Assembly: GCA_964452565.1 (NCBI GenBank)
Contig: CAYVLY010000002.1
Coordinates: 119,166 to 183,165, forward strand
Source: an uncultured Gammaproteobacteria bacterium
GTDB taxonomy: Bacteria; Patescibacteriota; Patescibacteriia; UBA9934
Reading direction: 5' to 3'
DNA: 64,000 nt
Shown: positions 4,003-40,352 of the stretch, in pieces
Numbering within the stretch: position 1 is the stretch's first letter
How the letters are laid out: the number at the start of each line of letters is the position of its first letter
Program-made: the position numbers and the translations under genes
The notes under the pieces: generated by a model
Database searches by the model: none
What the model was told of the DNA's origin: nothing
What the model saw: the letters and a program-made list of their open reading frames with translations, nothing else

Positions 4003-4862
4003 GCAAGGAAGAAACGCGAACTCTGCGTCTGACAAGCAGAGACCTCGATACACTCTCTGACCTGGGCGACTACAGATTCATGAGCATTGCCCAGCTCGCA
4101 GCTCTGCACTTCCCGACAGAGGGGGCAGCGCAGGCCAGGCTACGAAGGCTTGTGGAAGGCGGCCTGGCGCTCAAGGTCTATGTTCCAGTAAGGCCCTACG
4201 ACCGTAGCGCTCACACCATCTACGCCCTTTCTGCCAAGGGTGCTCGGGAACTCGCAGACGCCCGCGGGTGCAAGCGACCTCGGCACTTGTCCGAGCGAGA
4301 GCGCAGAAGCGGGCTCTTCCTGGACCACACGCTCCGGCGAAACGACCTGCGAGTCTGCCTGGAGTTGCTCCAGAGCATGGAGCCTGGATTCCGCCTGCTC
4401 ATCTGGCGCCAGGCCAAGGACGAGGTGGGCACGAGCGCCAGGGTGCGTGTGGGCAGAGGGAGAGAGCAGAGAGTGCCCATCGTGCCAGACGGGTACTTCG
4501 CCGTACAGATAGGAGCGGGGTTCGAGAACTTCGTGGTGGAGATCGACATGGGCACAGTGCGCCTCGACCGGATGGCCTTGCGCTACAAAGCGTACTGGAA
4601 ATGGTGGAAGGCAGGCGGGCACAAGGCTTTGTATGGCCCTCTGCCTATCCGAGTCCTGACACTCACCACCACACCCCGTAGACTCGAAGCCCTGCGAAAG
4701 GCAGCCATGGAGGCGCCCATGGGAGGGAGCACCGGCTCAAACCTCTTCTGGTTCGCCTGCCTCGAGTGCGCTGACATCCAATCGCCAGAAAAGCTGCTTA
4801 CCCCGGTCTGGACAACAGCGCAGAAGCGCCCAGGGCCACTACGGAAGCTAATTAAATCATAA
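3999..4862 (+). CDS. Replication-relaxation family protein (Replic_Relax-like)
   Basis: N-terminal wHTH (MSIAQLAALHF) plus FLDHTLRRNDLRVCLE and VEIDMGT motifs typical of this family on Gram-positive conjugative elements. ATGA overlap with the upstream gene. Confidence 0.65.
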   Translation: MSKEETRTLRLTSRDLDTLSDLGDYRFMSIAQLAALHFPTEGAAQARLRRLVEGGLALKVYVPVRPYDRSAHTIYALSAKGARELADARGCKRPRHLSERERRSGLFLDHTLRRNDLRVCLELLQSMEPGFRLLIWRQAKDEVGTSARVRVGRGREQRVPIVPDGYFAVQIGAGFENFVVEIDMGTVRLDRMALRYKAYWKWWKAGGHKALYGPLPIRVLTLTTTPRRLEALRKAAMEAPMGGSTGSNLFWFACLECADIQSPEKLLTPVWTTAQKRPGPLRKLIKS

Positions 4863-6824: not shown

Positions 6825-6952
6825 AAGCTACCCCGCTGGACGTGAGCCGGCGGGGCATTCTTGCATCAAGAAATATCAGTCGCGAAAGACAACAGTGACA
6901 CTATTCGTGGCATACAAATAGCCGCTACCAAGACAAATTTTCGCCGATTTTC

Positions 6953-14700: not shown

Positions 14701-15044
14701 CCGCCGCACTCCTCAACGCTCTGGGGCAGGTCCAAGGGTCCTTGCTCATGCGCCTTGGACTGGCGCTGCTTGTGCTGCCTCTGCTGCCTGTGGCGGTAGT
14801 TGTCGATGGGCTGCGATCGCTCATCCGCGCGCAGGCGGAATCTCGGGTGCTCTCTGCTGGAACAGCTCTCTGCCCTGCTGGGCACCGGCTGTCGCTGCAG
14901 GGCGCATATGAGTGCGAGCAATGCCGGCTTCCCTTTGAGGGGCATGGCTTTGGAGAGTGCCCACACTGTCGGCACGTGGCCCACAGCCTCCGATGTCCAT
15001 GCGGCCGAGTGGTCGTCAATCCTCTGTGGAGCCCAGAGCCGTGA
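14697..15044 (+). CDS. Small protein with an N-terminal TM helix and a C-terminal Cys-rich zinc finger
   Basis: ATGA start/stop overlap with the ATPase gene. CEQC...CPHC...CPCG cysteine cluster. Confidence 0.45.
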   Translation: MTAALLNALGQVQGSLLMRLGLALLVLPLLPVAVVVDGLRSLIRAQAESRVLSAGTALCPAGHRLSLQGAYECEQCRLPFEGHGFGECPHCRHVAHSLRCPCGRVVVNPLWSPEP

Positions 15045-15100
15045 GCAAGCTGAAGTGCCCAGCTCGGACTCGGCCCCGCCCTCCTGGCGGAACCAGGGTG

Positions 15101-16006
15101 ATGCCCAGGGACAAGCTCATTCTGTTGCTCGTGGCCAGATGCGCCCCGGTGACCACCACCCAGGTCCGAACCTACCTGGAGTGCAGCACAGATGTTGCCC
15201 AGCGCCGCTGCCGGGTGCTTCGTGATCATGGGCTGCTCCAAGTGACGCTCGATCCCCGAGGGCTCCATCGGCCCAACCTGCTGACTCTCGGTCTGCCAGC
15301 CATGCCGGTGCTCGACCAGACCTTCGGCTTGAGCCCCGAGCAGTGCCGCCGCCCCAAGGCCATGCCGAGGAACCTGGATCATCACCTTGGAGTCGTGGAC
15401 CTCTACATCCAGTTGAAGGCCGCCACCACAAGATCGAAACGCATCGACCTCGCCGATTCGATGCTGGACTGGGAGCTGCGTCAAGGCCCTGGGGCCCGCC
15501 AGAGGCGGGTACAGGTGCCCGATCTGGTAGCTGTTCTTCAGAGCGACAGTGGGCGCATGGGGCTGGCCATCGAGGTGGACATGGCTACGCAGTCACCCGA
15601 CAGCGTGGTCAGGAACAAGGCCCTGCCATACGCCCAGGCCAGGCTGTCTGGCTCGACCCTCAAGGGCTGCCGCGACTGGGCAGTCCTGATGGTGAGTGCC
15701 AGCGTGCGCCGGCGCAACCGCCTGATGATCCGCCTGGGCCGGGAAGCGCTGCCGCTGGGATTGTTCTACTTCGCCGTCTCGGAGAACATCTCTGCCAGGA
15801 GCTTCCTCGGACGAACTACATGGCGGGCTCGCCACCTGGGCTCCGACGGAGTCGTGCGCTGGCCAGAGACCGACCCCTTTGCACCTATCAGGACGACCCG
15901 TCAGGTCCGTGCTGACGGGTTTCGTGCGCCGTCCAAGCCTTTGCAGGCCGCCAATGGCGCGCCCGCAAACTCCGATCTTGGTCCTCCCGGAGGACCACGG
16001 ACATGA
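15101..16006 (+). CDS. Replication-relaxation family protein (second paralog)
   Basis: LDHHLGVVDLYIQL and IEVDMAT motifs parallel the 3999..4862 product. N-terminal wHTH. Confidence 0.6.
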   Translation: MPRDKLILLLVARCAPVTTTQVRTYLECSTDVAQRRCRVLRDHGLLQVTLDPRGLHRPNLLTLGLPAMPVLDQTFGLSPEQCRRPKAMPRNLDHHLGVVDLYIQLKAATTRSKRIDLADSMLDWELRQGPGARQRRVQVPDLVAVLQSDSGRMGLAIEVDMATQSPDSVVRNKALPYAQARLSGSTLKGCRDWAVLMVSASVRRRNRLMIRLGREALPLGLFYFAVSENISARSFLGRTTWRARHLGSDGVVRWPETDPFAPIRTTRQVRADGFRAPSKPLQAANGAPANSDLGPPGGPRT

Positions 16007-17110: not shown

Positions 17111-17998
17111 TCAACCGGGCTGCCTGCTGCTTCGCACTTGATCGCCGCTGTACCACCAGCCTGCTTCGGGCCGCACCCGGCCGGTGTGGGGCCGTCCCAT
17201 TCCGGTTGAACCGCGCCAGATTCTGTCAGCCCAGGCAGCCACCCGCTGCTCCATGGGCTCTCCCTCCAGCTTTCCTGGCCCTGGCTCGTTGGCCAGGGTT
17301 CGCGCAGGCTGTTTCCCCTCACCGCGCCTGGAGCTCTCGCTCTGGGTGGCACGAGGCAACAGCTCCGTGACTGCCTACGGCGCTGCCAGGTTGCGCCTGC
17401 CCAGGCCTGCGGGCTCGCTGGGTTCGCCTTCTTGGTCGTGGCTGTGGGACCACCATGGGTCTTCTCCTCCTATCCAGGCTTCCCGCCTGGCAGGTACTGG
17501 GGGCTCTGTCTCCGTTGCGCTCTGCTCATCAGGGGCGCTTGGGGCTGCAGGAGAGGTGGGAGAGCTCTGGACGGCGAGGCAGCCAGGCCGTCATGGTCTT
17601 TCGTGCGTGAAGCCCCGTGGGTTGCTCTGCACCGGTCGGGTCGCGCGTCCTGTTCTCCACACCGTGGGAGGGATCGACAGGTGAGCAGTTCCCGCTACCT
17701 GCGCCGCATGTGGCGGGCGTCCCTTGGCCCGGCCTCCTTGCTGGCCTTGGATGAGTGCGTGGAAGCGCTTCCTGCTCCAGGTCCACAAGCAAAGACCTGG
17801 TTGGTGGAGACTGTGAGCCCCATCGGAGAGGTGGCGGGCGTCAAGGTCTGGCGCTGGGGTGAGGTGCTGGAGGCCATCGAGTCGAAGCGCAGGGGCGTTG
17901 GCGACAAGGAGCCTGCACACTGCGAGCCTGCGTATGCAGACCGCCCTCCGCGCGGGCATCATGTTGAAGAAGAATTGAGCGGTACTGGCACCGACTGG

Positions 17999-18406
17999 AT
18001 GACTGTGCGCCAAGCCGCAGAGCACTTCCAAGTCTCCGAACGACTGCTCCGCAAGCTGCTCTCCCAAGGGCGGCTTGACGAAGCCGTCGCTCGGGTAGGC
18101 CGAGCAGTGCGGCTCCATCGGGGCCGTCTTGTGACGGCACTCACTGGACAGGAGGATGCCCATGGCCTGGCTCCAAAAGAGCAAGAGGCTCAACCCGGAC
18201 ACGGGGAAGAAGGAAATCTACTACCGAATCTGTTGGAGAGTGAACGGCAAGAAGCGTACCCGCGGCATCGGGTTCTGCGGGGTGGTGGAGGCCAAGGAGC
18301 TTCTCAAAATCTTCGAGGGCAAGCAGGCCGTCGGCGAGGAGGTGGCTCCGCCGCCGAGTTCCGAGCCTACCTCCGCGGAGCCAGCACTGGTTCCGAAGCT
18401 GGCTGA
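17999..18406 (+). CDS. xis: Excisionase/MerR-like HTH protein (Xis). 3' extent uncertain.
   Basis: MTVRQAAEHFQVSERLLRKLLSQGRLDEAVARVGRAVRLHRGRL is a typical excisionase-family HTH directly upstream of int. The ORF continues about 250 nt into int in another frame. Confidence 0.4.
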   Translation: MTVRQAAEHFQVSERLLRKLLSQGRLDEAVARVGRAVRLHRGRLVTALTGQEDAHGLAPKEQEAQPGHGEEGNLLPNLLESERQEAYPRHRVLRGGGGQGASQNLRGQAGRRRGGGSAAEFRAYLRGASTGSEAG

Positions 18407-19367
18407 CTACCTGGATGACGTGTTCCTGCCTGTTGTGCAGCGCGACAAGGCGCCCAAGACCTACGCCGGAGCCTGCCGGGCAGCCAATGCGCTCAAGCCC
18501 ATCCTTGGCCAGTTGCAGCTCGACCAGATCAACTTCGCCGCCGCCGATGCCTATGTGACCGAGCGGAAGAAGCTTGGCCGGAGGTCGAGGACCATCATCC
18601 TGGAGCTGCGCTACCTGCGCCAAGCCCTGCAGCACGCCCACGCCTGCGAAGTCATCCGCCAGGTGCCGGAGCTGCCCAGGATTGCCGACCGTGACCGTAA
18701 GCCCCACAAGTTCCTCACCGAAGAGGAGTCTGAGCGCCTGTTGGATGCCCTACGCCCCCTGGACGAGCAGCCCCACCGGGTCACCCGTGGGAGGCCACCC
18801 ATCACCAGGGACCAGCTCACCTACCTGGTGGTGCTGATGGCTCTCAACGCCGGTCTACGCAAGAGCGAGATCCTGACCCGCGGCTGGGAGGATATCCACT
18901 GGCAGCAGGGGCCTCTGGGCACCATCATCATCAGCCACAAGCCCGAGGTGGGTTTCGTGGTGAAGAAGGGGCGCGAACGGGCCATCCCGCTCACACCGAA
19001 TCTGCGCCACGCCCTGGAAGACGCCCACGAGGCTGCCGGCAGGCCGTCATCGGGCTGGATCTTCCCCTCGCCGAGGATTCCTGGCCAGCCGCGAAAGAAC
19101 TTCGCCCAAGCCCTGGCTCGGGCCTGCAGGCGAGCAGGGCTGCCGCGCATCCATCCCCACGGCCTGCGCCACACCTGGGCCACCAGGCTTGCCATGCAGG
19201 GGGTAGACCGTCGGACGCTCATGGAGCTGGGCGGCTGGAAGGAGGGCCGGATGCTTGATGAGATCTACGCCCACACCACCGACGCTCACAAGGCCGAGGT
19301 CATGGCGCGCATGGGCATCGGCCGCCATGAGAAGAGCCCCGAGGGTGAGCCGGATGATGAGGAGTAG
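18156..19367 (+). CDS. int: Phage-type tyrosine integrase
   Basis: N-terminal arm-binding-type segment (AWLQKSKRLNPDTGKKEIYYRICWRVNGKKRTRG). C-terminal catalytic HGLRHTWATRL...LGGWKEGRMLDEIYAH (R..HxxR..Y). Confidence 0.9.
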   Translation: MPMAWLQKSKRLNPDTGKKEIYYRICWRVNGKKRTRGIGFCGVVEAKELLKIFEGKQAVGEEVAPPPSSEPTSAEPALVPKLADYLDDVFLPVVQRDKAPKTYAGACRAANALKPILGQLQLDQINFAAADAYVTERKKLGRRSRTIILELRYLRQALQHAHACEVIRQVPELPRIADRDRKPHKFLTEEESERLLDALRPLDEQPHRVTRGRPPITRDQLTYLVVLMALNAGLRKSEILTRGWEDIHWQQGPLGTIIISHKPEVGFVVKKGRERAIPLTPNLRHALEDAHEAAGRPSSGWIFPSPRIPGQPRKNFAQALARACRRAGLPRIHPHGLRHTWATRLAMQGVDRRTLMELGGWKEGRMLDEIYAHTTDAHKAEVMARMGIGRHEKSPEGEPDDEE

Positions 19368-19735
19368 GTGCCACCCAGCTGCCACCCACGGCCAGCCTTC
19401 AAGGGCTCTCTGGGAGCAGATTTCTCTGGGTGCCACCCAGAACTGCCACCCAGCAGCCTCAATCGCTCCTTCAACGAAAAGACCCACTCTGCGGTTTGCA
19501 AAGTGGGTCGTTCTTTTTCGTCGAGTCGGGGTGGGCGGATTCGAACCGCCGACTTCCTGCTCCCAAATGATCGAATCGGGGAGGTATATCCTGTGTTTTC
19601 AAGGGGTTACAGTGCACCAGGATGCACGGTTTTGCACGGAAATGCACCTGGTTGCCACCCAGTGCCACCCAGCAGATGGGAGGATGATGGTGCGATATGG
19701 AGTCGGTGGTTCTGGGTGGCAGGGTGCCACCCAGT
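19368..19735. promoter_or_regulatory. attP-like region: eight copies of TGCCACCCAG (one inverted) in two clusters flanking a tRNA 3'-end-like core
   Basis: Copies start near 19369, 19380, 19431, 19444, 19653, 19663 and 19726, with the inverted copy at 19712. Layout is that of arm-type integrase-binding sites on both sides of a core. Confidence 0.5.
19525..19553 (-). other. tRNA 3'-end fragment (T-arm GGCGG-TTCGAAT-CCGCC plus acceptor 3' strand), candidate attachment core. Not a complete tRNA.
   Basis: Reverse complement reads GGCGGTTCGAATCCGCCCACCCCGAC. No matching 5' half. Differs from the tRNA-Val 3' end at 36061. Confidence 0.5.
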
Positions 19736-19858
19736 GTATCTACAAAATGGTACTCCTTTGCGCCAATGGGCAGCCGATGGATGTCAAGATTCTGTCAAGT
19801 CGGCATGGCAGCCTCCATGGATGTCCAATCCCGTAGATCGGCATGCGAGCCTACGAGC

Positions 19859-20770
19859 ATGAAGAACATCCACGCCATTCTCGAACAGCTTCTCACGCTC
19901 GCTCCCTTCCCTCTGACCGCAGCAGACATCAGGGAAGGGCTTGCCGACCTGCAGCTCGCACTGGCCGGTCTTGCCGTTGAGGTGCTGGAGGCAGAACGAA
20001 AAGAGCTCCCACTCCGCGAGGCTGCAGAGCTGGAGCGATTTCCCCGAATGCGGCTCGTTCATCTCGCCATCTTCGATCTACTCCGTTTTGAACTCCCCAA
20101 GGAGTATAGAGAAGTGCTGCGTGAGGTCAGCGCCGACAGTCAGGAGGAACCTCTCTTCGTACGCGACATCAAGCTCGCGCTGGTGAACTGCGCCCGGGAG
20201 TCGGACAACCCGGCAGAGCGCGCTGTCAGCCGTTTCTTTCTGTTTGAGATTATTCGCCTTGGCATGGTGATTGTCGCCTGGCTGGCGGGAGGCATTGAAG
20301 CCGTAGGCGGAGACCAGCAAGACATCGACGAGTTGGCGGAATCCGAGGTGGATGAGTGGTTGAGCAGGCCTCTTCTTCCTGGCCCGATCAGAACCTTCGA
20401 CGTGATCTTTGCTGGTGCCTTGCTACGCCTCAATGGCCGCGCTGATGTGCTTGCCGAGATGATGAATGAGCTCTCCGATGAAGCTCGCAGGGCTCAACTC
20501 TTCCGAGCTGCAGTGGAGGCCAAGCTGCGTGAGATGCCCGCAGCAGAGGCCGTGCTGATCCGCAACATGGTAGCCCCAGCGCTCGACGGGCAGCACGTGA
20601 CAGTCGAACGCTTGGCAGGCCTGCACCCCATGGCGCTCGGTCAACACAAGACAGAGGCGCTCTATAAGAAGCAACAAAGGGCGTTTTTGAAGCTTCGGCA
20701 GGGCCAGGATGTGAAGAGGAGCAATCCAGCCCTCTTTGACATGATTCGTGAAATGACCAAGGAAGGATAG
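19859..20770 (+). CDS. Hypothetical all-alpha protein (303 aa)
   Basis: First gene after the att repeats. ATG 19859 chosen because the upstream part of ORF 19697 overlaps the repeat array. Weak Rx4H (RLAGLH) near the C-terminus. Confidence 0.5.
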   Translation: MKNIHAILEQLLTLAPFPLTAADIREGLADLQLALAGLAVEVLEAERKELPLREAAELERFPRMRLVHLAIFDLLRFELPKEYREVLREVSADSQEEPLFVRDIKLALVNCARESDNPAERAVSRFFLFEIIRLGMVIVAWLAGGIEAVGGDQQDIDELAESEVDEWLSRPLLPGPIRTFDVIFAGALLRLNGRADVLAEMMNELSDEARRAQLFRAAVEAKLREMPAAEAVLIRNMVAPALDGQHVTVERLAGLHPMALGQHKTEALYKKQQRAFLKLRQGQDVKRSNPALFDMIREMTKEG

Positions 20771-20781
20771 CAGAACATCCC

Positions 20782-21213
20782 ATGACTTATGCGATCGCTA
20801 CATATGACTGGCAAAACGTGCTTGATGCGCTTGACGGACACGAACCAGGCTCCATCCTCCGCCTATCCAAGCGCTCCGTACCACATCCGCTCGACCAGGG
20901 GGCCAGAGAATCTGTAGGGCTGCCTCAAGGCCAGTCGGCTGACTACCGCTGGGAGCTTGAGAGTGGAGAGAGCCTGCATGTCAGGGATTTCGGCACGCAT
21001 TATGAAGCCCACATTGACCTCGTTGACCCTGCGGTCGATCTGCTGGCTCATCTGGCGAACGATGCCCCTGGAACAATGATCACGGGTAGTGCGGCTGGTG
21101 GCGCGTTGATCGGGACGGCAGTGGCTCGCACTGCGGCTGGCGCGCTTGTCGGAGGACTTGTTGGTGGGCTCGTAGGAGCTCTGGGAGTCGCTCTGCTCAC
21201 CCAGGATGACTAA
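20782..21213 (+). CDS. Hypothetical protein with a C-terminal glycine-zipper transmembrane segment
   Basis: C-terminus GSAAGGALIGTAVARTAAGALVGGLVGGLVGALGVALL (GxxxG repeats). Confidence 0.45.
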   Translation: MTYAIATYDWQNVLDALDGHEPGSILRLSKRSVPHPLDQGARESVGLPQGQSADYRWELESGESLHVRDFGTHYEAHIDLVDPAVDLLAHLANDAPGTMITGSAAGGALIGTAVARTAAGALVGGLVGGLVGALGVALLTQDD

Positions 21214-21484
21214 AACCAGAAAAGGAACACATGGAGGAGAGAAAATGCGCCGCAAACGCATTCATCGATCACGAATTCCCGAAAAAACTGCCGGCCGCGT
21301 CTACAGTGGCGCAGAGTGGGCCGCAGCTCGACGCGGGCACAGGAACCGTACTCGGTACTCGGGAATTGGAGGACTGGTTGGAGGAATTCTGGGCTCCTTC
21401 GGGGGTCTCTGGGGAGCTGCGGCAGGAGCTGCAATTGGAGCTGGTATCGGAGCGGCTATCGGTGACGAAGTTGACAGTGGTTGA
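21206..21484 (+). CDS. Small basic protein with a glycine-zipper (2TM-like) C-terminus
   Basis: Arg/Lys-rich N-terminus, then GIGGLVGGILGSFGGLWGAAAGAAIGAGIGAAIG. Confidence 0.4.
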   Translation: MTKTRKGTHGGEKMRRKRIHRSRIPEKTAGRVYSGAEWAAARRGHRNRTRYSGIGGLVGGILGSFGGLWGAAAGAAIGAGIGAAIGDEVDSG

Positions 21485-21760
21485 AAGTCATTATCCTTCC
21501 GGGACCGATGACAAAGGACGTGTAGAGCTTCCCCAGCACTCACACTAATTAAACCGATCCCTTGATCCTCCGAGGAGGCTCACCCTTCTTCTTTATTTCA
21601 CAGGGTGTATTTTACAACCGAAATATTCTCGTGCTCTTGAGATAACCAGAGGGGGAAAGAGAGCCATTTACATGTGGTGTATTAGGCGGCGATGCCTTTA
21701 CTTATTCCACGGTCTCGGCTACGGTGCGAGGTAGAGAATCCTCCCATAGGAGCACTTTCT

Positions 21761-23758
21761 ATGCCGAATCAGATTCGAACTCTGCCAGACGGCAAGATAT
21801 GCGATTTCATTGATGGAACTATCCGTAACGACACGCCGGAGGAATACGTTAGGCAGAATATTGAGAAACGCCTCGTCTTGGAGCTTGGGTATTCACTTGG
21901 CCAGATAGCTGTCGAATTTCCTATTCGCATCGGTAGCCGACGGGCACGGATTGACCTTGCCGTATTCCCGGAAGATGCCGCTCACACACAAGACAACGTG
22001 CATGTCATTGTTGAGTGCAAGCGAGAGTCAGTAGAGCCCACCGATCACAAGAACGGCGTTGAGCAACTCAAGTCCTACATGTCGGCTTGCCCCAACGCTG
22101 CTTGGGGGATGTGGACAAATGGCCGATACAAAGATGTGATTCGAAAGACCGTCTCTGACGGCAGCATCGAGTGGGAATCCCCGAATGATATCCCCGCCAA
22201 GGATGGGGATACAGACCGGTTGGACATGCCGTCCCGTGAAGATCTCACTAACGCAACGGACGACAACCTTCTCTTCTCTTTCAAGACATGTCACAATCAC
22301 ATCTATGTTACCGACGGGCTCCAGAAGCAACCCGCCTTCTTTGAGCTTTTAAAGGTGATCTTCTGTAAGATCCACGACGAGCGAAACGTACCTCATGCCC
22401 TTGAGTTCTACGCAACGGCCGCCGAAAAGGCGAGCAATGATGGTCGGCTGACAGTGGCGCGACGCATCGGCAGAATCTTCGATCGAGTGAAGGCGCGATA
22501 CCCAGCCATCTTTGACGGTGGAGACACAATTGCACTGGAACCACGGTCACTTGCCTATGTAGTTGGCGAGCTACACAAGTACAGCTTCCTGACTACAAAC
22601 ATCGACGTGAAAGGCAAGGCGTATGAAGAGTTAGTCGGTGCGAACTTGCGTGGAGACCGCGGAGAATTCTTCACGCCGCGCAATGTGCAGCGCATGGTTA
22701 TCGAAATGCTTGATGTACAGGTCGATGAGCGTGTTCTTGATCCCGCGTGTGGTACAGGTGGTTTCCTTGTCATTGCAATGAAATTGATAATCGATCAACT
22801 TCGAGAAAAGGCAGGATTCTATGCAGATGAGATGGTCAATCCGGCTGTCTTGCACGCCGTCGACCTGCGCGTGCGAGAGCTTGCAAGGTCTTGTTTCTTT
22901 GGTTTCGACATAAACCCCGACCTCGTCAAGGCGACCAAGATGAACATGGTCATGAACAACGATGGGTCGGGTAACATCTTCAGAGAAAACAGTTTATTGC
23001 ATCCACACCAGTGGTCTGACGGTTTCAAACAGGAACTCGCAGACGCGCTCGGGAAAAAGCCTCTTTCTCTGCGTGGGCCAGGCCACCTTGGTTATTTTGA
23101 CGTCATCGCTACGAATCCCCCTTTTGGCGCCAGACTGCCCATCAAGGACCGCGAAACATTGAGTCAATACGATCTTGGCTATGTGTGGACCGAGACGAAA
23201 ACCGGTTGGCAGAAAACACGCAAACTCCAGTCGTCCATGCCGCCTGAAGTTCTCTTTATCGAACGATGCTGGCAGTTTCTCAAACCTGGCGGCCGAATGG
23301 GCATCGTTTTGCCAGATTCCATTCTGGGCGCGCCTGGACAGCGTTTTGTTCGAGAGTGGATACTTCGCCACTGTCGGCTGATTGCCTCGGTCGATCTTCA
23401 TCCAGATACTTTTCAGCCACGCAACAGCACACACACGTCAGTTCTTGTGCTACAGCGAAAGACTGAAGATGAAATCCGTCGAGAGGAGAAACAAGGGCAG
23501 CTCAACGACTACTCGATCTTCATGGCTCAAGCGAAGGCGATTGGTCACGATAGACGAGGAAAGACTATTTATCGTCGAAATGAAGATGGGGAGATTGTGC
23601 TGGTGCCGCCCCCAGGTTCGGTTTCTACGTTGGAACGTACAGCGGACGGTTCTCCAGTCAGCCGTCCTCTACCAAGGCAGAAAATCAAGGACGATGATTG
23701 TCCTTTCATCTCTCAAGAGTTTCGTACCTGGAAGAAGACGGAGGTACTTGGCTGGTGA
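21761..23758 (+). CDS. N6-adenine DNA methyltransferase (HsdM/Type IIG-like) fused to an N-terminal HsdR-N/PD-(D/E)xK nuclease-like domain
   Basis: RBS AGGAG 9 nt upstream of ATG 21761. N-terminal YVRQNIEKRLV...IDLAVF...VIVECKR (restriction-endonuclease-fold core). FFTPRNVQRMV..LDPACGTGGFL (motif I). NPPFG (motif IV). Confidence 0.8.
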   Translation: MPNQIRTLPDGKICDFIDGTIRNDTPEEYVRQNIEKRLVLELGYSLGQIAVEFPIRIGSRRARIDLAVFPEDAAHTQDNVHVIVECKRESVEPTDHKNGVEQLKSYMSACPNAAWGMWTNGRYKDVIRKTVSDGSIEWESPNDIPAKDGDTDRLDMPSREDLTNATDDNLLFSFKTCHNHIYVTDGLQKQPAFFELLKVIFCKIHDERNVPHALEFYATAAEKASNDGRLTVARRIGRIFDRVKARYPAIFDGGDTIALEPRSLAYVVGELHKYSFLTTNIDVKGKAYEELVGANLRGDRGEFFTPRNVQRMVIEMLDVQVDERVLDPACGTGGFLVIAMKLIIDQLREKAGFYADEMVNPAVLHAVDLRVRELARSCFFGFDINPDLVKATKMNMVMNNDGSGNIFRENSLLHPHQWSDGFKQELADALGKKPLSLRGPGHLGYFDVIATNPPFGARLPIKDRETLSQYDLGYVWTETKTGWQKTRKLQSSMPPEVLFIERCWQFLKPGGRMGIVLPDSILGAPGQRFVREWILRHCRLIASVDLHPDTFQPRNSTHTSVLVLQRKTEDEIRREEKQGQLNDYSIFMAQAKAIGHDRRGKTIYRRNEDGEIVLVPPPGSVSTLERTADGSPVSRPLPRQKIKDDDCPFISQEFRTWKKTEVLGW

Positions 23759-25479
23759 GACCTCAATTTGCCCCAAACACGTCGGAGATTCCAGCAAGGC
23801 CCCGTAGGGACTCTATTGCCACAACGGTTTCACTCAAAGAAGTCGTCACCCAAGGAACACGGTTTGACGCTTCAGCGTACGACATAGAATCACGCAATAC
23901 GCTCACAACGATTGAGTCGTGTGGGCTATGTGTCCTGCCGTTGTTCGGCTCGAAAGGCCTCTGCAAGGAAGCACACAATGCCTTCCGCTTCAGGCGAGTT
24001 TTTGCTTCAGAACAAGGGCTACCGTTCCTGACCAGCGCTGACATCATCAAGATGCGACTGGACTATCGTCGTCATTTGAGTCGATCGCAGACTCCACGAG
24101 TGCGAGAGCTTCTTCTTCAGAAGTGGGATGTCTTAATTTCTTGTTCGGGAACCATTGGAAACGTCGCGCTGGCGGGTCCGGCGGTCGAAGGGTTTGCAGC
24201 GTCACAAGATATCATTCGGCTTCGTGCGACAAATAGTGACATTGCAGGTTACGTTGCGGCTTTCCTGCGTTCTCGCTATGGGAGAGGACTGATTGCGAAT
24301 GCGACCTATGGATCGGTAATAACGCACATTGAACCAGATCACCTATCCAGGATTCCCATCCCTGTACCACGTCCACACCTCATGAACGTCGTTGGCACGC
24401 AGATGAGAGAAGCCGTGCTACTGCGTGAACGAGCAAATCGGCTTCTCGATGACGCGGAAGCCGCCCTGTACGATGTTCTCGGCTTCGAGAGGCTTGATAC
24501 CCGGCACATGCGATCTACCACCATTCGCGCTCGGGAGCTCAATGGCCGCTTCGATGCCAGATACCACGAGCCAGTTGCTATTGCTGCTCTGCGGGATTTG
24601 GAGACATGCCGTTATCCGATATCGACAATTGGCGATGGCGCTGTATGTACTGAGATCCGGCAGGTCACGAGGTTTCGTAAGCGCGTATATGTTGAACGAG
24701 GTGGAATTCCTCTCCTAACAACGCGGCAGCTATTCCAGTACGACCCAGTCAAGATAAGTCACCTTGCAAAAGGCGCGCACGAAAAAGACCTCAAAGAAAT
24801 CGCGCTTGCGCCGAACATGGTAACTGTGAACTGCTCTGGTCGACTCGGCCGAGTGCAGGCAGGCACGCTCGGGCGTGTGCAGATTATCCCCAGATATATG
24901 TCGGAGTGGACTACTTCTCAACATGCACTGCGGCTTGTCGCTGCGCCTGACCTCAACGCAGGCTATCTCTATGCCTGGCTTGCCTCGGCCCACGGCCTTC
25001 GTGTCATTACGCGCCATGCATATGGCTCCGTAGTCGTTCACATTAACCGTCACATGATGGCCGAGGTTCCAATACCTCTCCCAACAAGGGAGAAGCGCAA
25101 CATGATTGGCGATCTTGTACTTCTGGCAAACCGACTGCGCGATGAAGCCTGGCGAAGGGAGCAAACTGCTATCCGGCAAGTTGAGGCTCTCATAGCCCTC
25201 CCCCCAGCTGAACATGATCCGATGGGATTTCGGATGGCTCAACTGGAGGCGGAGGCGAGTGGCGTTTATGCGCAGATAGAAAGTTCGTCTGACGAGCAAG
25301 AGGCATCCCGTCTACGCAGGAGACTTCGGCATCTACAACAAGAGCAGTCGGACCTGATGCAACAGGTCTTCTCCAGCCAGTTCTCACTTCCCCCAGAAGT
25401 TGGAGAGGATGTTATCGCCCTTGCTGACCGAGTACTGCGGGAGTATCGTGCTACTACCACCACGGCTTCAACCAAGTGA
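23698..25479 (+). CDS. hsdS: Type I restriction-modification specificity subunit (HsdS) with two target-recognition domains
   Basis: Duplicated TRD architecture with conserved SGTIGN/NCSGRLGRV-type segments and a central coiled-coil spacer. Alternative GTG start at 23755 overlaps the methyltransferase stop (GTGA). Confidence 0.75.
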   Translation: MSFHLSRVSYLEEDGGTWLVRPQFAPNTSEIPARPRRDSIATTVSLKEVVTQGTRFDASAYDIESRNTLTTIESCGLCVLPLFGSKGLCKEAHNAFRFRRVFASEQGLPFLTSADIIKMRLDYRRHLSRSQTPRVRELLLQKWDVLISCSGTIGNVALAGPAVEGFAASQDIIRLRATNSDIAGYVAAFLRSRYGRGLIANATYGSVITHIEPDHLSRIPIPVPRPHLMNVVGTQMREAVLLRERANRLLDDAEAALYDVLGFERLDTRHMRSTTIRARELNGRFDARYHEPVAIAALRDLETCRYPISTIGDGAVCTEIRQVTRFRKRVYVERGGIPLLTTRQLFQYDPVKISHLAKGAHEKDLKEIALAPNMVTVNCSGRLGRVQAGTLGRVQIIPRYMSEWTTSQHALRLVAAPDLNAGYLYAWLASAHGLRVITRHAYGSVVVHINRHMMAEVPIPLPTREKRNMIGDLVLLANRLRDEAWRREQTAIRQVEALIALPPAEHDPMGFRMAQLEAEASGVYAQIESSSDEQEASRLRRRLRHLQQEQSDLMQQVFSSQFSLPPEVGEDVIALADRVLREYRATTTTASTK

Positions 25480-26209
25480 TGTACCTCTTGAGCGCCGACA
25501 CTCACCCCGCCCACTTCGAGGAGAGTATGGGTATAGAGGGTATCGACCATGTATACGCTGGGATTTTGGTTTCACCTGCGCGATATGCCTTCTCCACGAA
25601 GCAGACTTCGTTGCTATTGGAATAGAGGGTACGGGGCTAACATCTATTGAGCATATTGAGGCGAGGAGTCACGACCAAGACCTCGTCAATGAATATTCCA
25701 ATCTTCTATATGCCTGTCGTTTCTGCAATACTGCACGGTCAAACCGTGGAAGATCTGCTCTGGATGGAGCGCAACTTCTGGACCCTACAGAAGCGGCCTG
25801 GGAGAACCACTTTTACATAGCTGCAGACGAACTTCGCCCGAAGCATGGAGATCACTCGGCGCAATACACGGCTGACTGCTACGATATTAAAGAACCGCGT
25901 AAAACAACTCTGCGCCGGCTCCGAAGGGAGCACGTCCAGTACTCACAGCGAGTGCTTGAAGCCGCGCCAGGACGTATTGCAGAGCTTAATAACGCCTTGG
26001 CAGACGATTCGATTTCGCCCTCATCTTCGCTCTACCTTCTCCTGAAGAACACGCTGGACGATTTGAAGGTCGAGTATGAGCGCATCATGACAGAGATTCT
26101 TCGCTACTGCGCAATACCGCTTGATGCGGACGACATCTGCCGTTGCGAGGGCGAGGGCAATCGAGCATTGCCGCCATTTATCGCGAGTCAAGTTTGGCAG
26201 ATAGGTTGA
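25400..26209 (+). CDS. HNH endonuclease-domain protein
   Basis: CAICLLHEADF...IEHIEARSH...NLLYACRFCNTAR, i.e. a CxxC...H...N...CxxC HNH motif. Start overlaps hsdS by about 80 nt, and no in-frame start lies downstream of the hsdS stop. Confidence 0.55.
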   Translation: MERMLSPLLTEYCGSIVLLPPRLQPSDVPLERRHSPRPLRGEYGYRGYRPCIRWDFGFTCAICLLHEADFVAIGIEGTGLTSIEHIEARSHDQDLVNEYSNLLYACRFCNTARSNRGRSALDGAQLLDPTEAAWENHFYIAADELRPKHGDHSAQYTADCYDIKEPRKTTLRRLRREHVQYSQRVLEAAPGRIAELNNALADDSISPSSSLYLLLKNTLDDLKVEYERIMTEILRYCAIPLDADDICRCEGEGNRALPPFIASQVWQIG

Positions 26210-29566: not shown

Positions 29567-30532
29567 CTACTTTTCATTGATAGATGCTCCATCATCGCAG
29601 AGCAGATCAACGACTTTTCGTAGGCCAGCCTGACCAGGGTGCAGGTAGCGGATCGTGGTCTGGATGGAGGCATGTCCAAGAAGGCGCCTGACCTCTTCAA
29701 TGCTCGCCCCGCGGTTCAAGAGCTCGGTGGCGAAGCCATGCCGCAGCATGTGAGGAGTAACGGCGAAGTTCAGGCCTGCAGCCTTCCCAAGGTCGCTGAC
29801 GTGGAGCTCGACCGTTCGCGGTGAAAGTCTACGGCGAAGCCTAGACACGAAGACCGCATTCGTAGCCAGCTTCAGCGATATTCTCTGCTCAAGCCAGGCA
29901 GCAAGAGCTGCTCGTGCTGTGCGGTTCAAGAGCACCGGCTGGGAGTTGCCGCCCTTGCGCCGGACCTCCAACAGGAGGCCCTCGTCCAGGTCCACCTGGT
30001 CGATGTCGAGGGAGAGAAGCTCATCGAGGCGCAGCCCTGTGTGGAACAGCAGCGTGACCATGCACGAGTCCCTGTGGTGTTTCAGGCCTGAAACACCCAT
30101 CGGGATGGCAGCCAGGAGCCTCTCCATATGCTCCGGCGTCACGACTGGAGGCTCTATCCGAGGAACCTTGACACGAGGGATGTCAGCCTCTGGGCTCAAC
30201 TCTATCACCTCTGTTTTTTCAAGATGTCTGAAAAAACCGCGAAGGACAGTCAGCTTGCGGTTCCGAGTGCTTGGAGAGATCGGGCCCCTGGGGCCTGGCC
30301 GGTTGAGATAGGCCACCAGGTGCTCACGGGTGACTTGCTCTGCCCTCACGACCTCCATCTTCGCGAGGGTTCGCCGAAAAAGGCATAGCTCCTGACGATA
30401 CGAGCGCAGCGTCTTTGGCGTGTACTTGCGCTCCTGTTCCGCGTGCTCCAGGAAGCCGTTGACGGTCGTCGCGAGGTCCATTCTTGAGCGTCGAGGGGTG
30501 AGGGTTTTTGGGGTGGGTGAACTGCGCCACAT
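29567..30532 (-). CDS. XerC/XerD-like tyrosine site-specific recombinase
   Basis: Box I-like TGLRLDELLSL. C-terminal HMLRHGFATELL...LLGHASIQTTIRYLH. Contains palindrome copy 3 in-frame (encoding GVSGLKHH). Confidence 0.85.
   Translation of the reverse strand: MWRSSPTPKTLTPRRSRMDLATTVNGFLEHAEQERKYTPKTLRSYRQELCLFRRTLAKMEVVRAEQVTREHLVAYLNRPGPRGPISPSTRNRKLTVLRGFFRHLEKTEVIELSPEADIPRVKVPRIEPPVVTPEHMERLLAAIPMGVSGLKHHRDSCMVTLLFHTGLRLDELLSLDIDQVDLDEGLLLEVRRKGGNSQPVLLNRTARAALAAWLEQRISLKLATNAVFVSRLRRRLSPRTVELHVSDLGKAAGLNFAVTPHMLRHGFATELLNRGASIEEVRRLLGHASIQTTIRYLHPGQAGLRKVVDLLCDDGASINEK
30076..30097. repeat. Perfect 22-bp palindrome GGTGTTTCAGGCCTGAAACACC, copy 3, inside the recombinase coding sequence
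   Basis: Exact match, embedded in codons of the 29567..30532 ORF. Confidence 0.9.
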
Positions 30533-31735: not shown

Positions 31736-33145
31736 TCAGGCGGCGCGCACCTCCTCTCTCGGCTGGATCTCCCCTGGTCGTCGCCGCAGGCGTCGGGGCT
31801 CCGCGGGTGGCTCGCGCCTGGTGAGGAGCAAGTCGAGGAATGCGCACAGGGAATCCAGGGAGCGGAGGCAGTAGTGGGAGCGCTGTCTCTTGCGGAACTC
31901 CCTGTTCTCTCGCTCTGGGTGGTTGGAGGTCTTGTCGGCGTTGTCGAAATCCAGGTAGTGGGTGAGCCGAGCGAAGAGGCCGTCATTGGACAGATCCGCG
32001 AGCACCAGCTTCATACCAGGGATTCCCTGGAATGCGGGATTGGCGAGGAGGGCCTGTCTGCGCTCCTCTGCCAACTCGTGGGAGTCCGTGCTCGAGCCGA
32101 AGAGCTCGTACATCGCCTCGATGAAGCGGCGGAGCACGCCTAAGGCCGGGCAGAGGCAGAAGGCCTCGTCCAGCATCTTCTGCTCGGCCTCGGTGATGAG
32201 CGGGCGCCCCTTGTCGTCCAGCCCCCCACGCTTGAAGATCAGGAACCGGCAGCGCATCACCTTGCGCCGGTTCTCCCTCTTCCGTTTGTCCAGCCGAGGT
32301 CGTCCCCTCTTCCTTGGGCGGCCACGTTTGCGCTTCTTGGGCTTTGGAAGTTCGTTGTAGGCGGCCCAGAAGGCCTTGGCCAGCTTCCTGTTCGCTCCCA
32401 TGAGGAAGTGGAAGACGCAGCGTTGGTGCTCGGCCTCGGGCCACACCTCTGCGATGATCTCTGGGTAGAGAGAGGAGCCGTCCGTCACCACGATCTGGGG
32501 CATGATGCCCGCCTCTCGCAGCTCCAGGAAAAACTCGCGCACGTCTTGGCCGCAGGGAGAGCCGTCCCCCAGCCGAGAGGAGATCTCCACGCCGTTGAGC
32601 GGATCGGTGGCTCTGATCACGTAGTGGTCGCCTTCGTAGACCTCGTCTACAGCGAGCTGACCGGAGAAGACCGTCACCATCCTCTCCATATGGCTCTGGA
32701 AATCCACCTCGCCCCCAGCTCTGCGGTACCAGCGGAGGACCGTCGTGTCTGCCAGCTTGGGCAGATGGAGCAGGGAGCGGCCCACGGCAGCCGCTCCCTC
32801 AAAGGACAACTTGTGGTCCACGACCAGCGACAGCACGGCGAGGCGAGTGGCGGTCGTATATCGGCTCCGTTCCTCGAATCCTGGAGGCTCAAGACGGAAC
32901 CAGCACTGGCCGCGTGGGCAGTGCTCACAGATGTAGCAGCCGACCTGCACGTACTCCATCGTAGGCCCATCGATGTCGGCCCTCTGGCGTTCCAGCAGGC
33001 GGATTTCGTTCCGCGGAGCTGGGCGACCACATCGAGGGCAGAGTGCGGCCTCTGGGGCGAAGGGGACAGGGTTGAGCTTCTTGGTGGGGAGGGGTATGGT
33101 CTTCATCGGCGCAGGTCCGGTTTGTGGAGCTTGGTAACTACGCAA
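31736..33145 (-). CDS. DDE-type insertion-sequence transposase with an N-terminal zinc ribbon. Family not assigned.
   Basis: CPRCG...CYICEHC zinc ribbon. Acidic residues in a DDE-like arrangement (AVDEVYEGD, IVVTDGSS). Basic KRKRGRPRKRGRPR patch. C-terminal NHPERENREFRKRQR resembles the transposase N..E..N..K/R signature. Confidence 0.6.
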   Translation of the reverse strand: MRSYQAPQTGPAPMKTIPLPTKKLNPVPFAPEAALCPRCGRPAPRNEIRLLERQRADIDGPTMEYVQVGCYICEHCPRGQCWFRLEPPGFEERSRYTTATRLAVLSLVVDHKLSFEGAAAVGRSLLHLPKLADTTVLRWYRRAGGEVDFQSHMERMVTVFSGQLAVDEVYEGDHYVIRATDPLNGVEISSRLGDGSPCGQDVREFFLELREAGIMPQIVVTDGSSLYPEIIAEVWPEAEHQRCVFHFLMGANRKLAKAFWAAYNELPKPKKRKRGRPRKRGRPRLDKRKRENRRKVMRCRFLIFKRGGLDDKGRPLITEAEQKMLDEAFCLCPALGVLRRFIEAMYELFGSSTDSHELAEERRQALLANPAFQGIPGMKLVLADLSNDGLFARLTHYLDFDNADKTSNHPERENREFRKRQRSHYCLRSLDSLCAFLDLLLTRREPPAEPRRLRRRPGEIQPREEVRAA

Positions 33146-36060: not shown

Positions 36061-36137
36061 TGGTGGGCGTGAGAGGACTCGAACCTCTGACCTTCACAAT
36101 GTCAATGTGACACTCTAACCAGCTGAGCTACACGCCC
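36061..36137 (-). tRNA. tRNA-Val (anticodon GAC)
   Basis: Manual fold of the reverse complement: acceptor GGGCGTG/CACGCCC, D-arm GCTCAGCTGGTTAGAGT, anticodon loop TTGACAT, T-arm AGAGGTTCGAGTCCTCT, discriminator A, encoded CCA. Confidence 0.9.
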
Positions 36138-40278: not shown

Positions 40279-40323
40279 ACAGAACCCAGCCGAAGGCCCT
40301 GAGCCTATCGAAGGGAACACAGA
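40279..40323. repeat. 45-bp repeat ACAGAACCCAGCCGAAGGCCCTGAGCCT(A/G)TCGAAGGGAACACAGA, intergenic copy
   Basis: 44 of 45 identical to 57479..57523. Flanked by cagaaca-type short repeats. Confidence 0.85.
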
Positions 40324-40330
40324 TCAAAGG

Positions 40331-40352
40331 ACCGCCGCAAGGCGGTTCTTTT
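40331..40352 (+). terminator. Rho-independent terminator after rplS
   Basis: ACCGCC-gcaa-GGCGGT stem-loop followed by TCTTTT. Confidence 0.65.

What the first reader, a model, noticed from the sequence alone, without database searches (positions are those of the whole stretch)
19859..21484. Three-gene cassette after the att site: 303-aa alpha-helical protein plus two glycine-zipper membrane proteins
These genes are the first cargo after the attachment repeats. Two encode GxxxG-rich C-terminal segments of the glycine-zipper 2TM type, and the small one also has a highly basic N-terminus. Such pairs occur in stress, toxin and immunity or membrane-permeabilising effector contexts. The upstream protein shows only a weak Rx4H, leaving it unresolved.
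Basis: inference. Interest (0 to 1): 0.5.

Follow-up and report, generated by a model that had tools for sequence, protein, structure and literature searches.

The report
Uncharacterised helical-plus-glycine-zipper gene cassette
Next to an integrase attachment site lies a real operon whose core is a conserved, unnamed gene pair (a helical cytoplasmic protein plus a tail-anchored glycine-zipper membrane protein, here with a small glycine-zipper partner) that travels on mobile elements and defence islands, making it a reasonable but untested candidate for a new membrane-acting conflict or defence module.

Summary
The three ORFs exist as described: A 19859-20770, B 20782-21213, C best started at 21245 and ending at 21484. 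They sit between an attP-like site and a terminator-like hairpin. None reaches a curated threshold in Pfam, NCBIfam or PADLOC.

The conserved unit is A+B, not the two glycine-zipper proteins. A directly precedes B in 15 independent loci, often with a 4-nt overlap, and the two co-diverge (Mantel r 0.63). The A family has 232 representative clusters. One member carries an N-terminal Ser/Thr kinase.

B is modelled with confidence (pLDDT 86) as a cytoplasmic alpha/beta domain with no significant fold match, followed by a glycine-zipper helical hairpin. C has a true homologue beside A-B in one other element, in a different gene order, so it is an occasional accessory.

Neighbours are mostly integrases, restriction-modification, ABC-3C, STAND, HipA-like, caspase-like and Lit-like genes. 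The Rx4H motif is not conserved, so a HEPN reading is not supported. A's C-terminus weakly resembles sigma-70 region 4.

Best guess (about 0.4): a conflict, abortive-infection or toxin-antitoxin-like module in which A senses or regulates and B, with or without C, permeabilises the membrane. Function is untested.

The parts
18156..19367 (+). Tyrosine integrase (context: the recombinase whose att site precedes the cassette)
   Evidence: Pfam Phage_integrase E 7e-30
19369..19453 (.). Left cluster of TGCCACCCAG repeats (candidate integrase arm-type sites)
   Evidence: Five matches in this interval at one mismatch or fewer. The window holds 13 against 4.6 expected, and 0 of 100 shuffles reach 13.
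19481..19511 (.). Bidirectional terminator-like hairpin after the integrase gene
   Evidence: 12-pair stem on the - strand and 9-pair stem on the + strand, each followed by a T run
19522..19567 (-). tRNA-Pro(UGG)-like 3' half, from anticodon loop to acceptor end: candidate att core
   Evidence: Read directly from the sequence. It occurs once in the window. ARAGORN and Rfam do not call it as a tRNA, as expected for a fragment. An independent assembly contig begins at window position 19525.
19653..19734 (.). Right cluster of TGCCACCCAG repeats; together with the left cluster this gives an attP-like arm-core-arm layout
   Evidence: Four exact matches
19859..20770 (+). Gene A: 303-aa cytoplasmic all-helical protein of an unnamed family; the C-terminal ~70 residues weakly resemble sigma-70 region 4 (HTH)
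   Evidence: No Pfam, NCBIfam, PADLOC or PHROG family. 232 representative relatives. hhalign against a sigma region 4 alignment: probability 42.7, E 2.5e-4; reversed control P 0.29.
20782..21213 (+). Gene B: 143-aa tail-anchored protein. Cytoplasmic alpha/beta domain (about residues 10-95, motif LHVRDFGTHYEAHID) plus a C-terminal glycine-zipper helical hairpin (96-141)
21245..21484 (+). Gene C: 79-aa protein (92 aa if started at 21206) with a very basic N-terminus and a 35-residue glycine zipper
   Evidence: Homologue beside A-B in L024/L025 (55% identity, E 8e-8; with low-complexity masking E 3.6e-7).
21572..21591 (+). Terminator-like hairpin closing the A-B-C unit before the restriction-modification genes

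Best explanation
A-B, here with the accessory C, is a self-contained conflict module of a kind not yet catalogued, most likely abortive-infection or toxin-antitoxin-like. It is carried as cargo by integrative elements and defence islands.

Proposed mechanism:
- A is a fast-diverging cytoplasmic helical protein with a possible sigma-region-4-like DNA-binding tail. It acts as the sensor and/or regulator and binds B.
- B is held at the inner face of the membrane by its C-terminal glycine-zipper hairpin. On a trigger, the hairpins oligomerise, possibly together with C's similar zipper, and permeabilise or depolarise the membrane.
- B's conserved His/Asp/Glu-rich alpha/beta domain is the control or ligand-binding part.

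Shown: gene structure, conservation of the pair, co-divergence, B's predicted architecture, genomic neighbourhoods, and absence from known families.

Inferred: A-B contact, membrane insertion, toxicity, and any role against phage.
For: - A directly precedes B in 15 independent loci, often with a 4-nt ATGA overlap.
- All five A-family members sampled from the exhaustive search had B next to them in at least one contig.
- The A and B identity matrices are correlated (Mantel r 0.63, p 0.003).
- B is more conserved than A in 27 of 28 pairs (41% against 29.5%). This fits a conserved effector with a diversifying partner.
- C-terminal glycine zippers are required for the toxicity of TelE. They are also a feature of the membrane-depolarising EsxX C-terminus and occur among the ionophoric CdiA toxins (abstracts listed: PMC10434224, PMC12744356, PMC11630599).
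- Neighbours are mostly conflict genes:
  - restriction-modification, HNH (PtuB-like matches) and MADS-like genes in the window;
  - ABC-3C MC2/CTD6 and an integrase in L009;
  - an HSDR_N + NACHT-like STAND protein and Hjc in L014;
  - integrase, HipA_2, caspase-like C14 peptidase and Replic_Relax in L020;
  - HsdR in L026 and DUF4145 in L013;
  - Lit-like Peptidase_U49 in L027;
  - Fic and IS66 in L005;
  - DEAD/ResIII/N6_Mtase in L002;
  - a serine recombinase and YhcG nuclease in L024.
- One family member fuses a Ser/Thr kinase to A.
- C recurs beside A-B in a different gene order.
Against: - There are no functional data.
- No member matches a PADLOC model, apart from one stray JetA hit among 110 sequences.
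- A is split by frameshifts in two lineages while B stays intact. This is hard to reconcile with A being an essential antitoxin to a constitutively toxic B.
- Some loci (L006, L023) sit among ordinary metabolic or core-like genes.
- The loop between B's two helices carries conserved R/K residues. This does not fit a simple in-out-in hairpin under the positive-inside rule.
- C's zipper is only marginally hydrophobic.
- Defence-island association was judged from about 13 loci by eye, not by a statistical enrichment test.
Confidence: 0.4

Rival explanations
1. Membrane-tethered transcription switch of the mobile element. A is a DNA-binding regulator or sigma-like factor, through its region-4-like HTH. 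B, and sometimes C, holds it at the membrane as an anti-factor, releasing it on a signal to control element genes such as excision, transfer or cargo.
For: - The top PDB sequence hit of the A profile is RpoD region 4 (E 0.37).
- hhalign against a region 4 alignment gives probability 42.7 and E 2.5e-4 over 62 columns. The reversed control gives P 0.29.
- Translationally coupled regulator plus membrane-partner pairs are the classic ECF sigma/anti-sigma layout (established knowledge).
- The pair sits next to int, xis-like and Replic_Relax genes in the window and in L020.
- This model tolerates frameshifted A copies beside an intact B.
Against:
- No sigma region 2 or any other Pfam match was found in 113 members.
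- B's cytoplasmic domain is alpha/beta, not the helical anti-sigma domain, and lacks a ZAS motif.
- Many loci have no obvious target genes or element backbone nearby.
Confidence: 0.2
2. Element-transfer or exclusion function. The proteins would be small membrane proteins analogous to the spread (spd) or kil/kor pairs of actinomycete plasmids and integrative elements, or to surface or entry exclusion proteins, serving the element's own spread or blocking superinfection.
For: - Replic_Relax and integrase backbones lie nearby in the window and L020.
- The cassette lies at the attP, which is the edge of the element.
- kil/kor systems pair a membrane protein with a repressor (established knowledge of Streptomyces plasmids).
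Against: - At most 5 of about 13 loci show a recombinase within 8 kb.
- Several loci show no element backbone at all.
- No sequence relation to TraT, Spd or Kil proteins was detected.
- The TraT similarity is limited to a generic helical hairpin.
Confidence: 0.12
3. Ordinary envelope or stress proteins. B and C would be glycine-zipper outer-membrane lipoproteins of the SlyB/Pcp/YMGG type, unrelated to the mobile element.
For: - Weak Pfam Gly-zipper_Omp and YMGG matches, and an NCBIfam YiaD match, to the zipper segments.
Against: - All matches fall below the curated cut-offs and cover only the low-complexity zipper.
- Neither protein has a signal peptide or lipobox cysteine; C has no Cys (sequences).
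- B's bulk is an N-terminal soluble domain.
- Homologues sit in mobile or defence contexts.
Confidence: 0.04
4. A is a HEPN-type RNase toxin (Rx4H), with B and C as accessory or immunity proteins.
For: Two Rx4H strings occur in A, at 63-68 and 251-256.
Against: - The arginine and histidine coincide in only 7 and 25 of 110 aligned family members.
- H68 and H256 are conserved, but as parts of other motifs (LxRxH...D and H-P).
- No HEPN family was hit in Pfam or PADLOC.
Confidence: 0.03

Closest known systems
Glycine-zipper membrane toxins (TelE, the EsxX C-terminus, ionophoric CdiA-CT toxins)
   Same: They have a C-terminal stack of GxxxG/small-xxx-small motifs in a short hydrophobic segment. 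In those proteins the zipper is needed for toxicity or accompanies membrane depolarisation (PMC10434224, PMC12744356, PMC11630599, as listed). They are encoded in conflict loci.
   Different: Those are secreted polymorphic toxins with T7SS or CDI delivery domains and cognate immunity genes. B and C have no secretion domain, B has a conserved cytoplasmic domain, and no immunity-like gene is evident. No sequence homology beyond the motif was shown.
Pfam Gly-zipper_Omp (PF13488) / Gly-zipper_YMGG (PF13441); SlyB/Pcp-type lipoproteins
   Different: The window proteins score below the gathering thresholds. They have no signal peptide or lipobox. C has a strongly basic cytoplasmic-type N-terminus, and B a soluble N-terminal domain.
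ECF sigma factor / membrane anti-sigma factor pairs
   Same: A two-gene, translationally coupled pair of a cytoplasmic protein with a region-4-like C-terminus and a small membrane-anchored partner with a cytoplasmic N-terminal domain.
   Different: No region 2 was detected. A is about 100 residues longer than ECF sigmas. B's domain is alpha/beta rather than a helical anti-sigma domain. The region 4 similarity is weak (probability 43%).
Two-gene sensor plus membrane-effector defence modules (transmembrane effectors of CBASS, Pycsar, retron and similar systems; from general knowledge)
   Same: A small operon in defence islands and mobile elements. It has one conserved short membrane protein and one more variable cytoplasmic partner.
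   Different: There is no cyclase, reverse transcriptase, NTPase or other known signalling enzyme. No PADLOC model matches. Defence activity is untested.
kil/kor and spd genes of actinomycete plasmids and integrative elements (from general knowledge)
   Same: A membrane protein paired with a putative DNA-binding protein on elements carrying integrase and Replic_Relax genes.
   Different: No sequence relation was found, and many loci lack any transfer backbone.

Membership tests
Pfam Gly-zipper_Omp / Gly-zipper_YMGG | Score at or above the curated gathering threshold (25 / 28.9 bits) | tested here: not met
   C scores 23.9 and 22.6 bits; B scores 13.7 and 13.0 bits. The C homologue in L024/L025 does carry precomputed hits.
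SlyB/Pcp/YiaD-type glycine-zipper lipoproteins | N-terminal signal peptide with a lipobox cysteine | tested here: not met
   The sequences show B starting MTYAIATYDWQ and C starting MRRKRIHRS. Neither has a hydrophobic h-region, and C has no cysteine. The NCBIfam YiaD match is 18.4 bits against a cut-off of 175.
Glycine-zipper 2TM hairpin (structural motif) | Two adjacent helices packed through GxxxG/small-xxx-small repeats | tested here: met
   For B, AF2 gives helices 96-115 and 118-141 with pLDDT of about 87-95, and six GxxxG motifs lie between residues 102 and 132. This was not modelled for C.
Glycine-zipper membrane toxins (TelE/EsxX/CdiA ionophores) | Toxicity or membrane depolarisation that depends on the zipper | not testable with these tools
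   Requires expression and membrane-potential assays.
HEPN RNases | Conserved Rx4-6H catalytic motif across the family | tested here: not met
   Arginine and histidine coincide at the aligned columns in 7 of 110 and 25 of 110 members.
Sigma-70 family (region 4 HTH) | Significant profile match to region 4 | tested here: inconclusive
   PDB hmmsearch top hit is 1tty (RpoD region 4) at E 0.37. hhalign gives probability 42.7 and E 2.5e-4; the reversed control gives P 0.29. No Pfam Sigma70_r4 hit in 113 members.
Sigma-70 family | Region 2 (core-binding, -10 recognition) | tested here: not met
   No Sigma70_r2 or related Pfam hit in any of 113 members at E <= 0.01.
Known or candidate anti-phage systems (PADLOC-DB 2.0.0) | Match to any system component model | tested here: not met
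   No hits for A, B or C. Among 110 A-family members there is one stray JetA hit. Among 12 B-family members there are no hits.
Phage-encoded proteins (PHROGs, INPHARED phages, IMG/VR) | Homologues in phage genomes | tested here: not met
   PHROG matches cover only the low-complexity zipper at weak E-values. No IMG/VR loci for B. No tblastn match for A or B in 50,697 phage records.
Integrative-element cargo next to attP | Adjacent tyrosine integrase, arm-type repeats and a tRNA-derived core | tested here: met
   Integrase, repeat clusters on both sides, and a tRNA-Pro-like 3' half read.

The most novel reading that the evidence does not exclude
A-B, with or without C, is a previously unrecognised anti-phage or anti-plasmid abortive-infection system. 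It would be built from two new protein folds or families: a rapidly diversifying helical sensor with a sigma-region-4-like tail, and a tail-anchored effector. The effector's new His/Asp-rich alpha/beta domain would gate a glycine-zipper pore. Kinase-fused variants would add a phospho-signalling branch.
Probability: 0.3. Interest if true: 0.65.

Novelty: new variant of a known kind. Interest (0 to 1): 0.5.

Why it matters
If the module is a working conflict system, it would add a new family pair to the list of membrane-acting defence or addiction modules. There are about 230 clusters at 50% identity, nearly all from uncultured high-GC soil and sediment bacteria. It would also give a function to a conserved domain with no fold or family assignment, the B N-domain, which is present in a haloarchaeal plasmid too. 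Its position at the attP edge of an integrative element, directly followed by a restriction-modification block, fits the picture of integrases seeding defence islands. Even if it proves to be only a regulatory switch, a membrane-tethered sigma-4-like regulator on mobile elements would be a useful new example.

Tried and rejected
- Family libraries. Pfam, NCBIfam, PADLOC and PHROGs scans of A, B and C gave nothing above a curated threshold.
- Word-indexed protein search for A. It found only A itself. A profile of four sequences found only one more. The exhaustive HMM search was needed to find the family.
- AF2 model of A from a 2-sequence alignment. Deeper alignments could not be submitted under the tool's restrictions.
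- PDB sequence search with profiles. The first A profile was contaminated by the kinase fusion. After that was removed, only a weak sigma region 4 hit remained. The B profile hit nothing.
- Related-locus scan with the A alignment.
- Collection searches. tblastn of A and C against plasmids, and of A and B against phages, gave no match. The viral contig scan for B gave none.
- HEPN reading of A. Rejected on column counts.
- Lipoprotein reading of B and C. Rejected on sequence.
- Second copy of the tRNA-Pro fragment, or of the tRNA-Val 3' end, to delimit the island. None was found in the window.
- Rfam scan of 19300-21800. Nothing meaningful.
- Literature search for a described glycine-zipper defence system of this kind. 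None was found.
Full report
OBSERVATION

- A, 19859-20770 (303 aa)
- B, 20782-21213 (143 aa)
- C, 21206-21484 (92 aa)

A's longer 357-aa reading from 19697 would run through the repeat cluster. It is not supported by homologue alignment, where the relatives begin near the 19859 methionine.

C most likely starts at 21245 (79 aa). Three things point to this: a GGAGGAG box lies 5 nt upstream, an independent gene call on another assembly uses that start, and the only homologue found is 81 aa and aligns from there.

The unit is bracketed by two terminator-like hairpins. One is bidirectional, at 19481-19511, after the integrase gene. The other is at 21572-21591, before the next operon.

UPSTREAM CONTEXT

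A tyrosine integrase is encoded at 18156-19367 (Pfam 7e-30). It is followed by clusters of the decamer TGCCACCCAG at 19369-19453 and 19653-19734. The window holds 13 matches against 4.6 expected, and no shuffle reaches 13.

Between the clusters, on the minus strand at about 19522-19567, lies a sequence that I read as the 3' half of a tRNA-Pro(UGG). It has the TTTGGGA anticodon loop, a GGCGG/CCGCC T-stem, the TTCGAAT loop and a CACCCCG-A acceptor end. ARAGORN and Rfam do not call it, as expected for a fragment. It has no second copy in the window.

Repeats on both sides of a tRNA-derived core give an attP-like layout (arm-core-arm), not that of an attL or attR junction. An independent assembly contig starts at window position 19525, inside this fragment. 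That fits a repeated or variable junction.

Further left lie an HTH_17 Xis-like ORF and two Replic_Relax genes. To the right lie:
- a methyltransferase with an N-terminal nuclease-like domain, a specificity subunit and an HNH protein, 21692-26209;
- a XerC-like integrase and a Mutator transposase remnant;
- tRNA-Val at 36061-36137, where G+C falls from about 53% to about 44%.

So 'first cargo after the att site' is a fair description.

THE PROTEINS

None of the three reaches a curated threshold in Pfam, NCBIfam, PADLOC or PHROGs.

Protein B
- It has 12 relatives in the word-indexed search, at 34-53% identity.
- The alignment shows an invariant or near-invariant set: W10, H35-P36, G50-Q51, D54, R56, H66, F70, Y74-E75, H77, D79, D94, P96. 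It includes the signature LHVRDFGTHYEAHID.
- AlphaFold2 on this alignment gives a confident model (mean pLDDT 86). An N-terminal helix, a four-strand sheet and a helix cover residues 10-94, followed by two long helices, 96-115 and 118-141.
- The two helices carry six GxxxG motifs, and the second is clearly hydrophobic (KD19 2.24).
- Foldseek against PDB and BFVD finds nothing significant for the N-domain. A profile search of PDB sequences finds nothing.
- B has no signal peptide.
- It is therefore best described as a tail-anchored protein with a cytoplasmic alpha/beta domain, for which no significant fold match was found, and a glycine-zipper hairpin.
- A divergent copy of the N-domain occurs in an unannotated ORF of a Salinigranum rubrum plasmid. 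There it is fused to a Cys-rich N-terminus and followed by one hydrophobic tail.

Protein A
- It looked like an orphan in the word-indexed search.
- However, the genes upstream of B homologues are clearly related to it, at 24-28% identity.
- An exhaustive HMM search with A plus one homologue found 232 representative clusters at E <= 1e-3 (61 at <= 1e-30). Almost all are 300-340 aa.
- Of 113 members scanned against Pfam, the only high-confidence hit was a Ser/Thr kinase domain, fused N-terminally to A in P0024.
- The AF2 model from two sequences is all-helical but unreliable (pLDDT 54).
- Conserved motifs are [FY]-P-x-L-x-R-x-H-x4-D, R-A-L-A-R-F-x-L-F-E-x-x-R-L-N, A-E, L-x3-H-P and R-x2-R.
- The C-terminal ~70 residues resemble sigma-70 region 4. 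It is the top, though non-significant, PDB hit of the family profile (1tty, E 0.37).
The reversed alignment gives P 0.29.
- I treat a DNA-binding HTH as plausible, not shown.

Protein C
- It has 17 K/R in its first 50 residues, then nine overlapping GxxxG motifs at residues 55-86.
- It scores just under the Pfam Gly-zipper_Omp threshold (23.9 against 25 bits).
- Its hydrophobicity is marginal (KD19 1.49).
- It has no cysteine and no signal peptide, so it is not a SlyB/Pcp-type lipoprotein.

WHAT IS THE CONSERVED UNIT?

I scanned all fetched loci with HMMs of the two families. A directly precedes B in the window and in L002, L005, L006, L009, L010, L012, L014, L018, L019, L020, L023, L024, L026 and L028. 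That makes 15 independent loci.

Spacing is tight:
- a 4-nt overlap in L005, L006, L009, L010, L020 and L028;
- a 1-nt overlap in L024;
- an 11-nt spacer in the window, L023 and L026.

All five A-family members picked from the exhaustive search had B next to them in at least one contig.

Exceptions:
- L015 has an N-terminally shortened B behind an unrelated gene.
- L027 is a B deletion relative to L028.
- The archaeal plasmid ORF has no A.

A and B identity matrices are correlated (Mantel r 0.63, p 0.003). B is the more conserved partner in 27 of 28 comparisons (41% against 29.5%).

C is absent from 13 of the 15 loci. A genuine homologue lies immediately upstream of A in L024/L025. It shows 55% identity over 47 residues (E 8e-8), and 50% over the non-repetitive N-terminal 32 residues with low-complexity masking (E 3.6e-7).

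The same three families in two gene orders (A-B-C and C-A-B) argue that C is a real but optional accessory of the A-B core.

NEIGHBOURHOODS

The pair keeps company with recombinases and conflict genes:

| Locus | Neighbours |
|---|---|
| Window | Integrase; restriction-modification, HNH (PtuB-like matches) and MADS-like genes |
| L009 | Integrase; ABC-3C system (MC2, CTD6) |
| L014 | HSDR_N + NACHT-like 1087-aa protein; Hjc-like nuclease |
| L020 | Integrase, Xis-like, HipA_2, caspase-like C14 peptidase, Replic_Relax |
| L024 | Large serine recombinase, XRE and HTH_17 regulators, YhcG nuclease, MZB helicase |
| L026 | HsdR |
| L013 | DUF4145 |
| L027 | Lit-like Peptidase_U49 |
| L005 | Fic and IS66 |
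| L002 | DEAD/ResIII/N6_Mtase, GMT-wHTH, DUF5131 |

L006 and L023 look more like ordinary chromosomal settings.

No relatives were found in IMG/VR or in sequenced phages. In plasmids, only the haloarchaeal domain match turned up. Only two of 185,579 species-representative genomes carry B, both of them MAGs. Known carriers are therefore essentially uncultured, mostly high-GC organisms. In the window the cassette (58-60% G+C) sits in a genome whose core is about 44%.

INTERPRETATION

Shown:
- The operon is real.
- It has a conserved, co-diverging A-B core with an optional C.
- B has a tail-anchored glycine-zipper architecture.
- It is absent from curated families.
- It recurs in mobile-element and defence contexts.

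Inferred: what it does.

The reading I favour (about 0.4) is a conflict module, abortive-infection or toxin-antitoxin-like. B's zipper hairpin, possibly co-assembling with C's similar GGLVGG zipper, would permeabilise the membrane. A would be the variable sensor or regulator.

Precedents for zipper-linked membrane toxicity are TelE, where the motif is required for toxicity, and the glycine-zipper-bearing, membrane-depolarising EsxX C-terminus; a glycine zipper is also mentioned in the paper on ionophoric CdiA toxins (abstracts). The kinase-A fusion next to a caspase-like peptidase fits conflict-system logic.

Points against:
- A is frameshifted in two lineages while B stays intact. The same break appears in three separate samples for L002/3/4, and a different break appears in L009. 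This argues against A being an indispensable antitoxin.
- The conserved basic loop between B's helices does not suit a simple hairpin topology.
- Nothing matches PADLOC.

Main rival (about 0.2): a membrane-tethered regulator switch, with a sigma-4-like A held by B. This explains the HTH-like tail and tolerates the A frameshifts. It lacks any region 2, anti-sigma-like fold or evident regulon.

Other rivals: a transfer or exclusion role for the element (about 0.12), ordinary lipoproteins (about 0.04) and a HEPN toxin (about 0.03).

COMPARISON, NOVELTY AND VERDICT

The cassette works like known sensor plus membrane-effector pairs and shares the zipper motif with known toxins. It is not a member of any tested family:
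- Pfam glycine-zipper thresholds are not met.
- Lipoprotein features are absent.
- The HEPN motif is not conserved.
- Sigma region 4 similarity is inconclusive and region 2 is absent.
- There are no PADLOC or phage relatives.

I rate it a new variant of a known kind. It is a solid, testable candidate among many uncharacterised defence-island modules. Its interpretation is partly supported, with the correction that the functional core is A+B rather than the two zipper proteins. Interest 0.5.

Noticed in passing
window 19369-19734: TGCCACCCAG repeat clusters lie on both sides of a tRNA-Pro-like 3' half, giving an attP-like arm-core-arm layout rather than an attL/attR junction. No complete tRNA-Pro and no second copy of the fragment occur in the window. 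An independent assembly contig starts inside the fragment, at 19525. The integrase element may be excised, tandem or nested.
   Followed up: partly
window 1-64000 (steps near 20000 and 36100): G+C falls in steps: about 60% (1-20 kb), about 53% (20-36 kb) and about 44% (37-64 kb). tRNA-Val(GAC) at 36061-36137 on the minus strand sits at the last step. This suggests at least two foreign blocks stacked beside that tRNA gene.
   Followed up: partly
window 21692-26209: This is a restriction-modification-like block. It holds a 688-aa methyltransferase with an N-terminal HSDR_N_2 nuclease-like domain (PADLOC MTase_II 2e-155, also mad2 1e-55), a 593-aa specificity subunit (also mad5 1e-24), and an HNH protein matching PADLOC PtuB models. 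The system type (type I/IIG-like or MADS-like) was not resolved.
   Followed up: no
window 3999-4862, 14957-16006, 17432-18406: Two Replic_Relax paralogues and an HTH_17 Xis-like ORF lie left of the integrase. Most other long ORFs in 1-17 kb have no Pfam match. The same integrase plus Replic_Relax backbone flanks the kinase-A/B pair in L020.
   Followed up: partly
window 29567-30532 (-), 31736-33145 (-): A second, XerC/D-like integrase and a Mutator-family transposase remnant lie inside the 20-36 kb block.
   Followed up: no
window 40279-40333 / 57479-57533; 46544, 51991, 57460: A 55-nt direct repeat (93% identical) and related AGAACACAGAAC-rich 31-nt repeats are scattered in intergenic parts of the low-GC region.
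   Followed up: no
L002/L003/L004/L017 about 6909-7996; L009 7070-8001: Homologues of A are split into two ORFs by frameshifts at different positions in two lineages. The same break is seen in three separate metagenome samples. The downstream B gene stays intact. This could be pseudogenisation, a tolerated split, or recoding.
   Followed up: partly
L011 5707-6297 (Salinigranum rubrum plasmid NZ_CP026313): An unannotated 196-aa ORF combines a Cys-rich zinc-ribbon-like N-terminus with a B-like domain (35% identity) and one hydrophobic tail. It sits among DUF6166, GIY-YIG and MoxR genes. The B N-domain therefore also exists in archaea, without A.
   Followed up: partly
L020 6001-9413: A Ser/Thr kinase is fused to the N-terminus of an A-family domain. 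It is followed by B (4-nt overlap) and then a caspase-like Peptidase_C14 gene, on an element with integrase, a Xis-like gene, a HipA_2 kinase and Replic_Relax.
   Followed up: partly
window 45050-46618 (-): A 522-aa protein with a T4SS_pilin domain lies next to uvrA (41943-44876) in the low-GC, apparently core part of the window.
   Followed up: no
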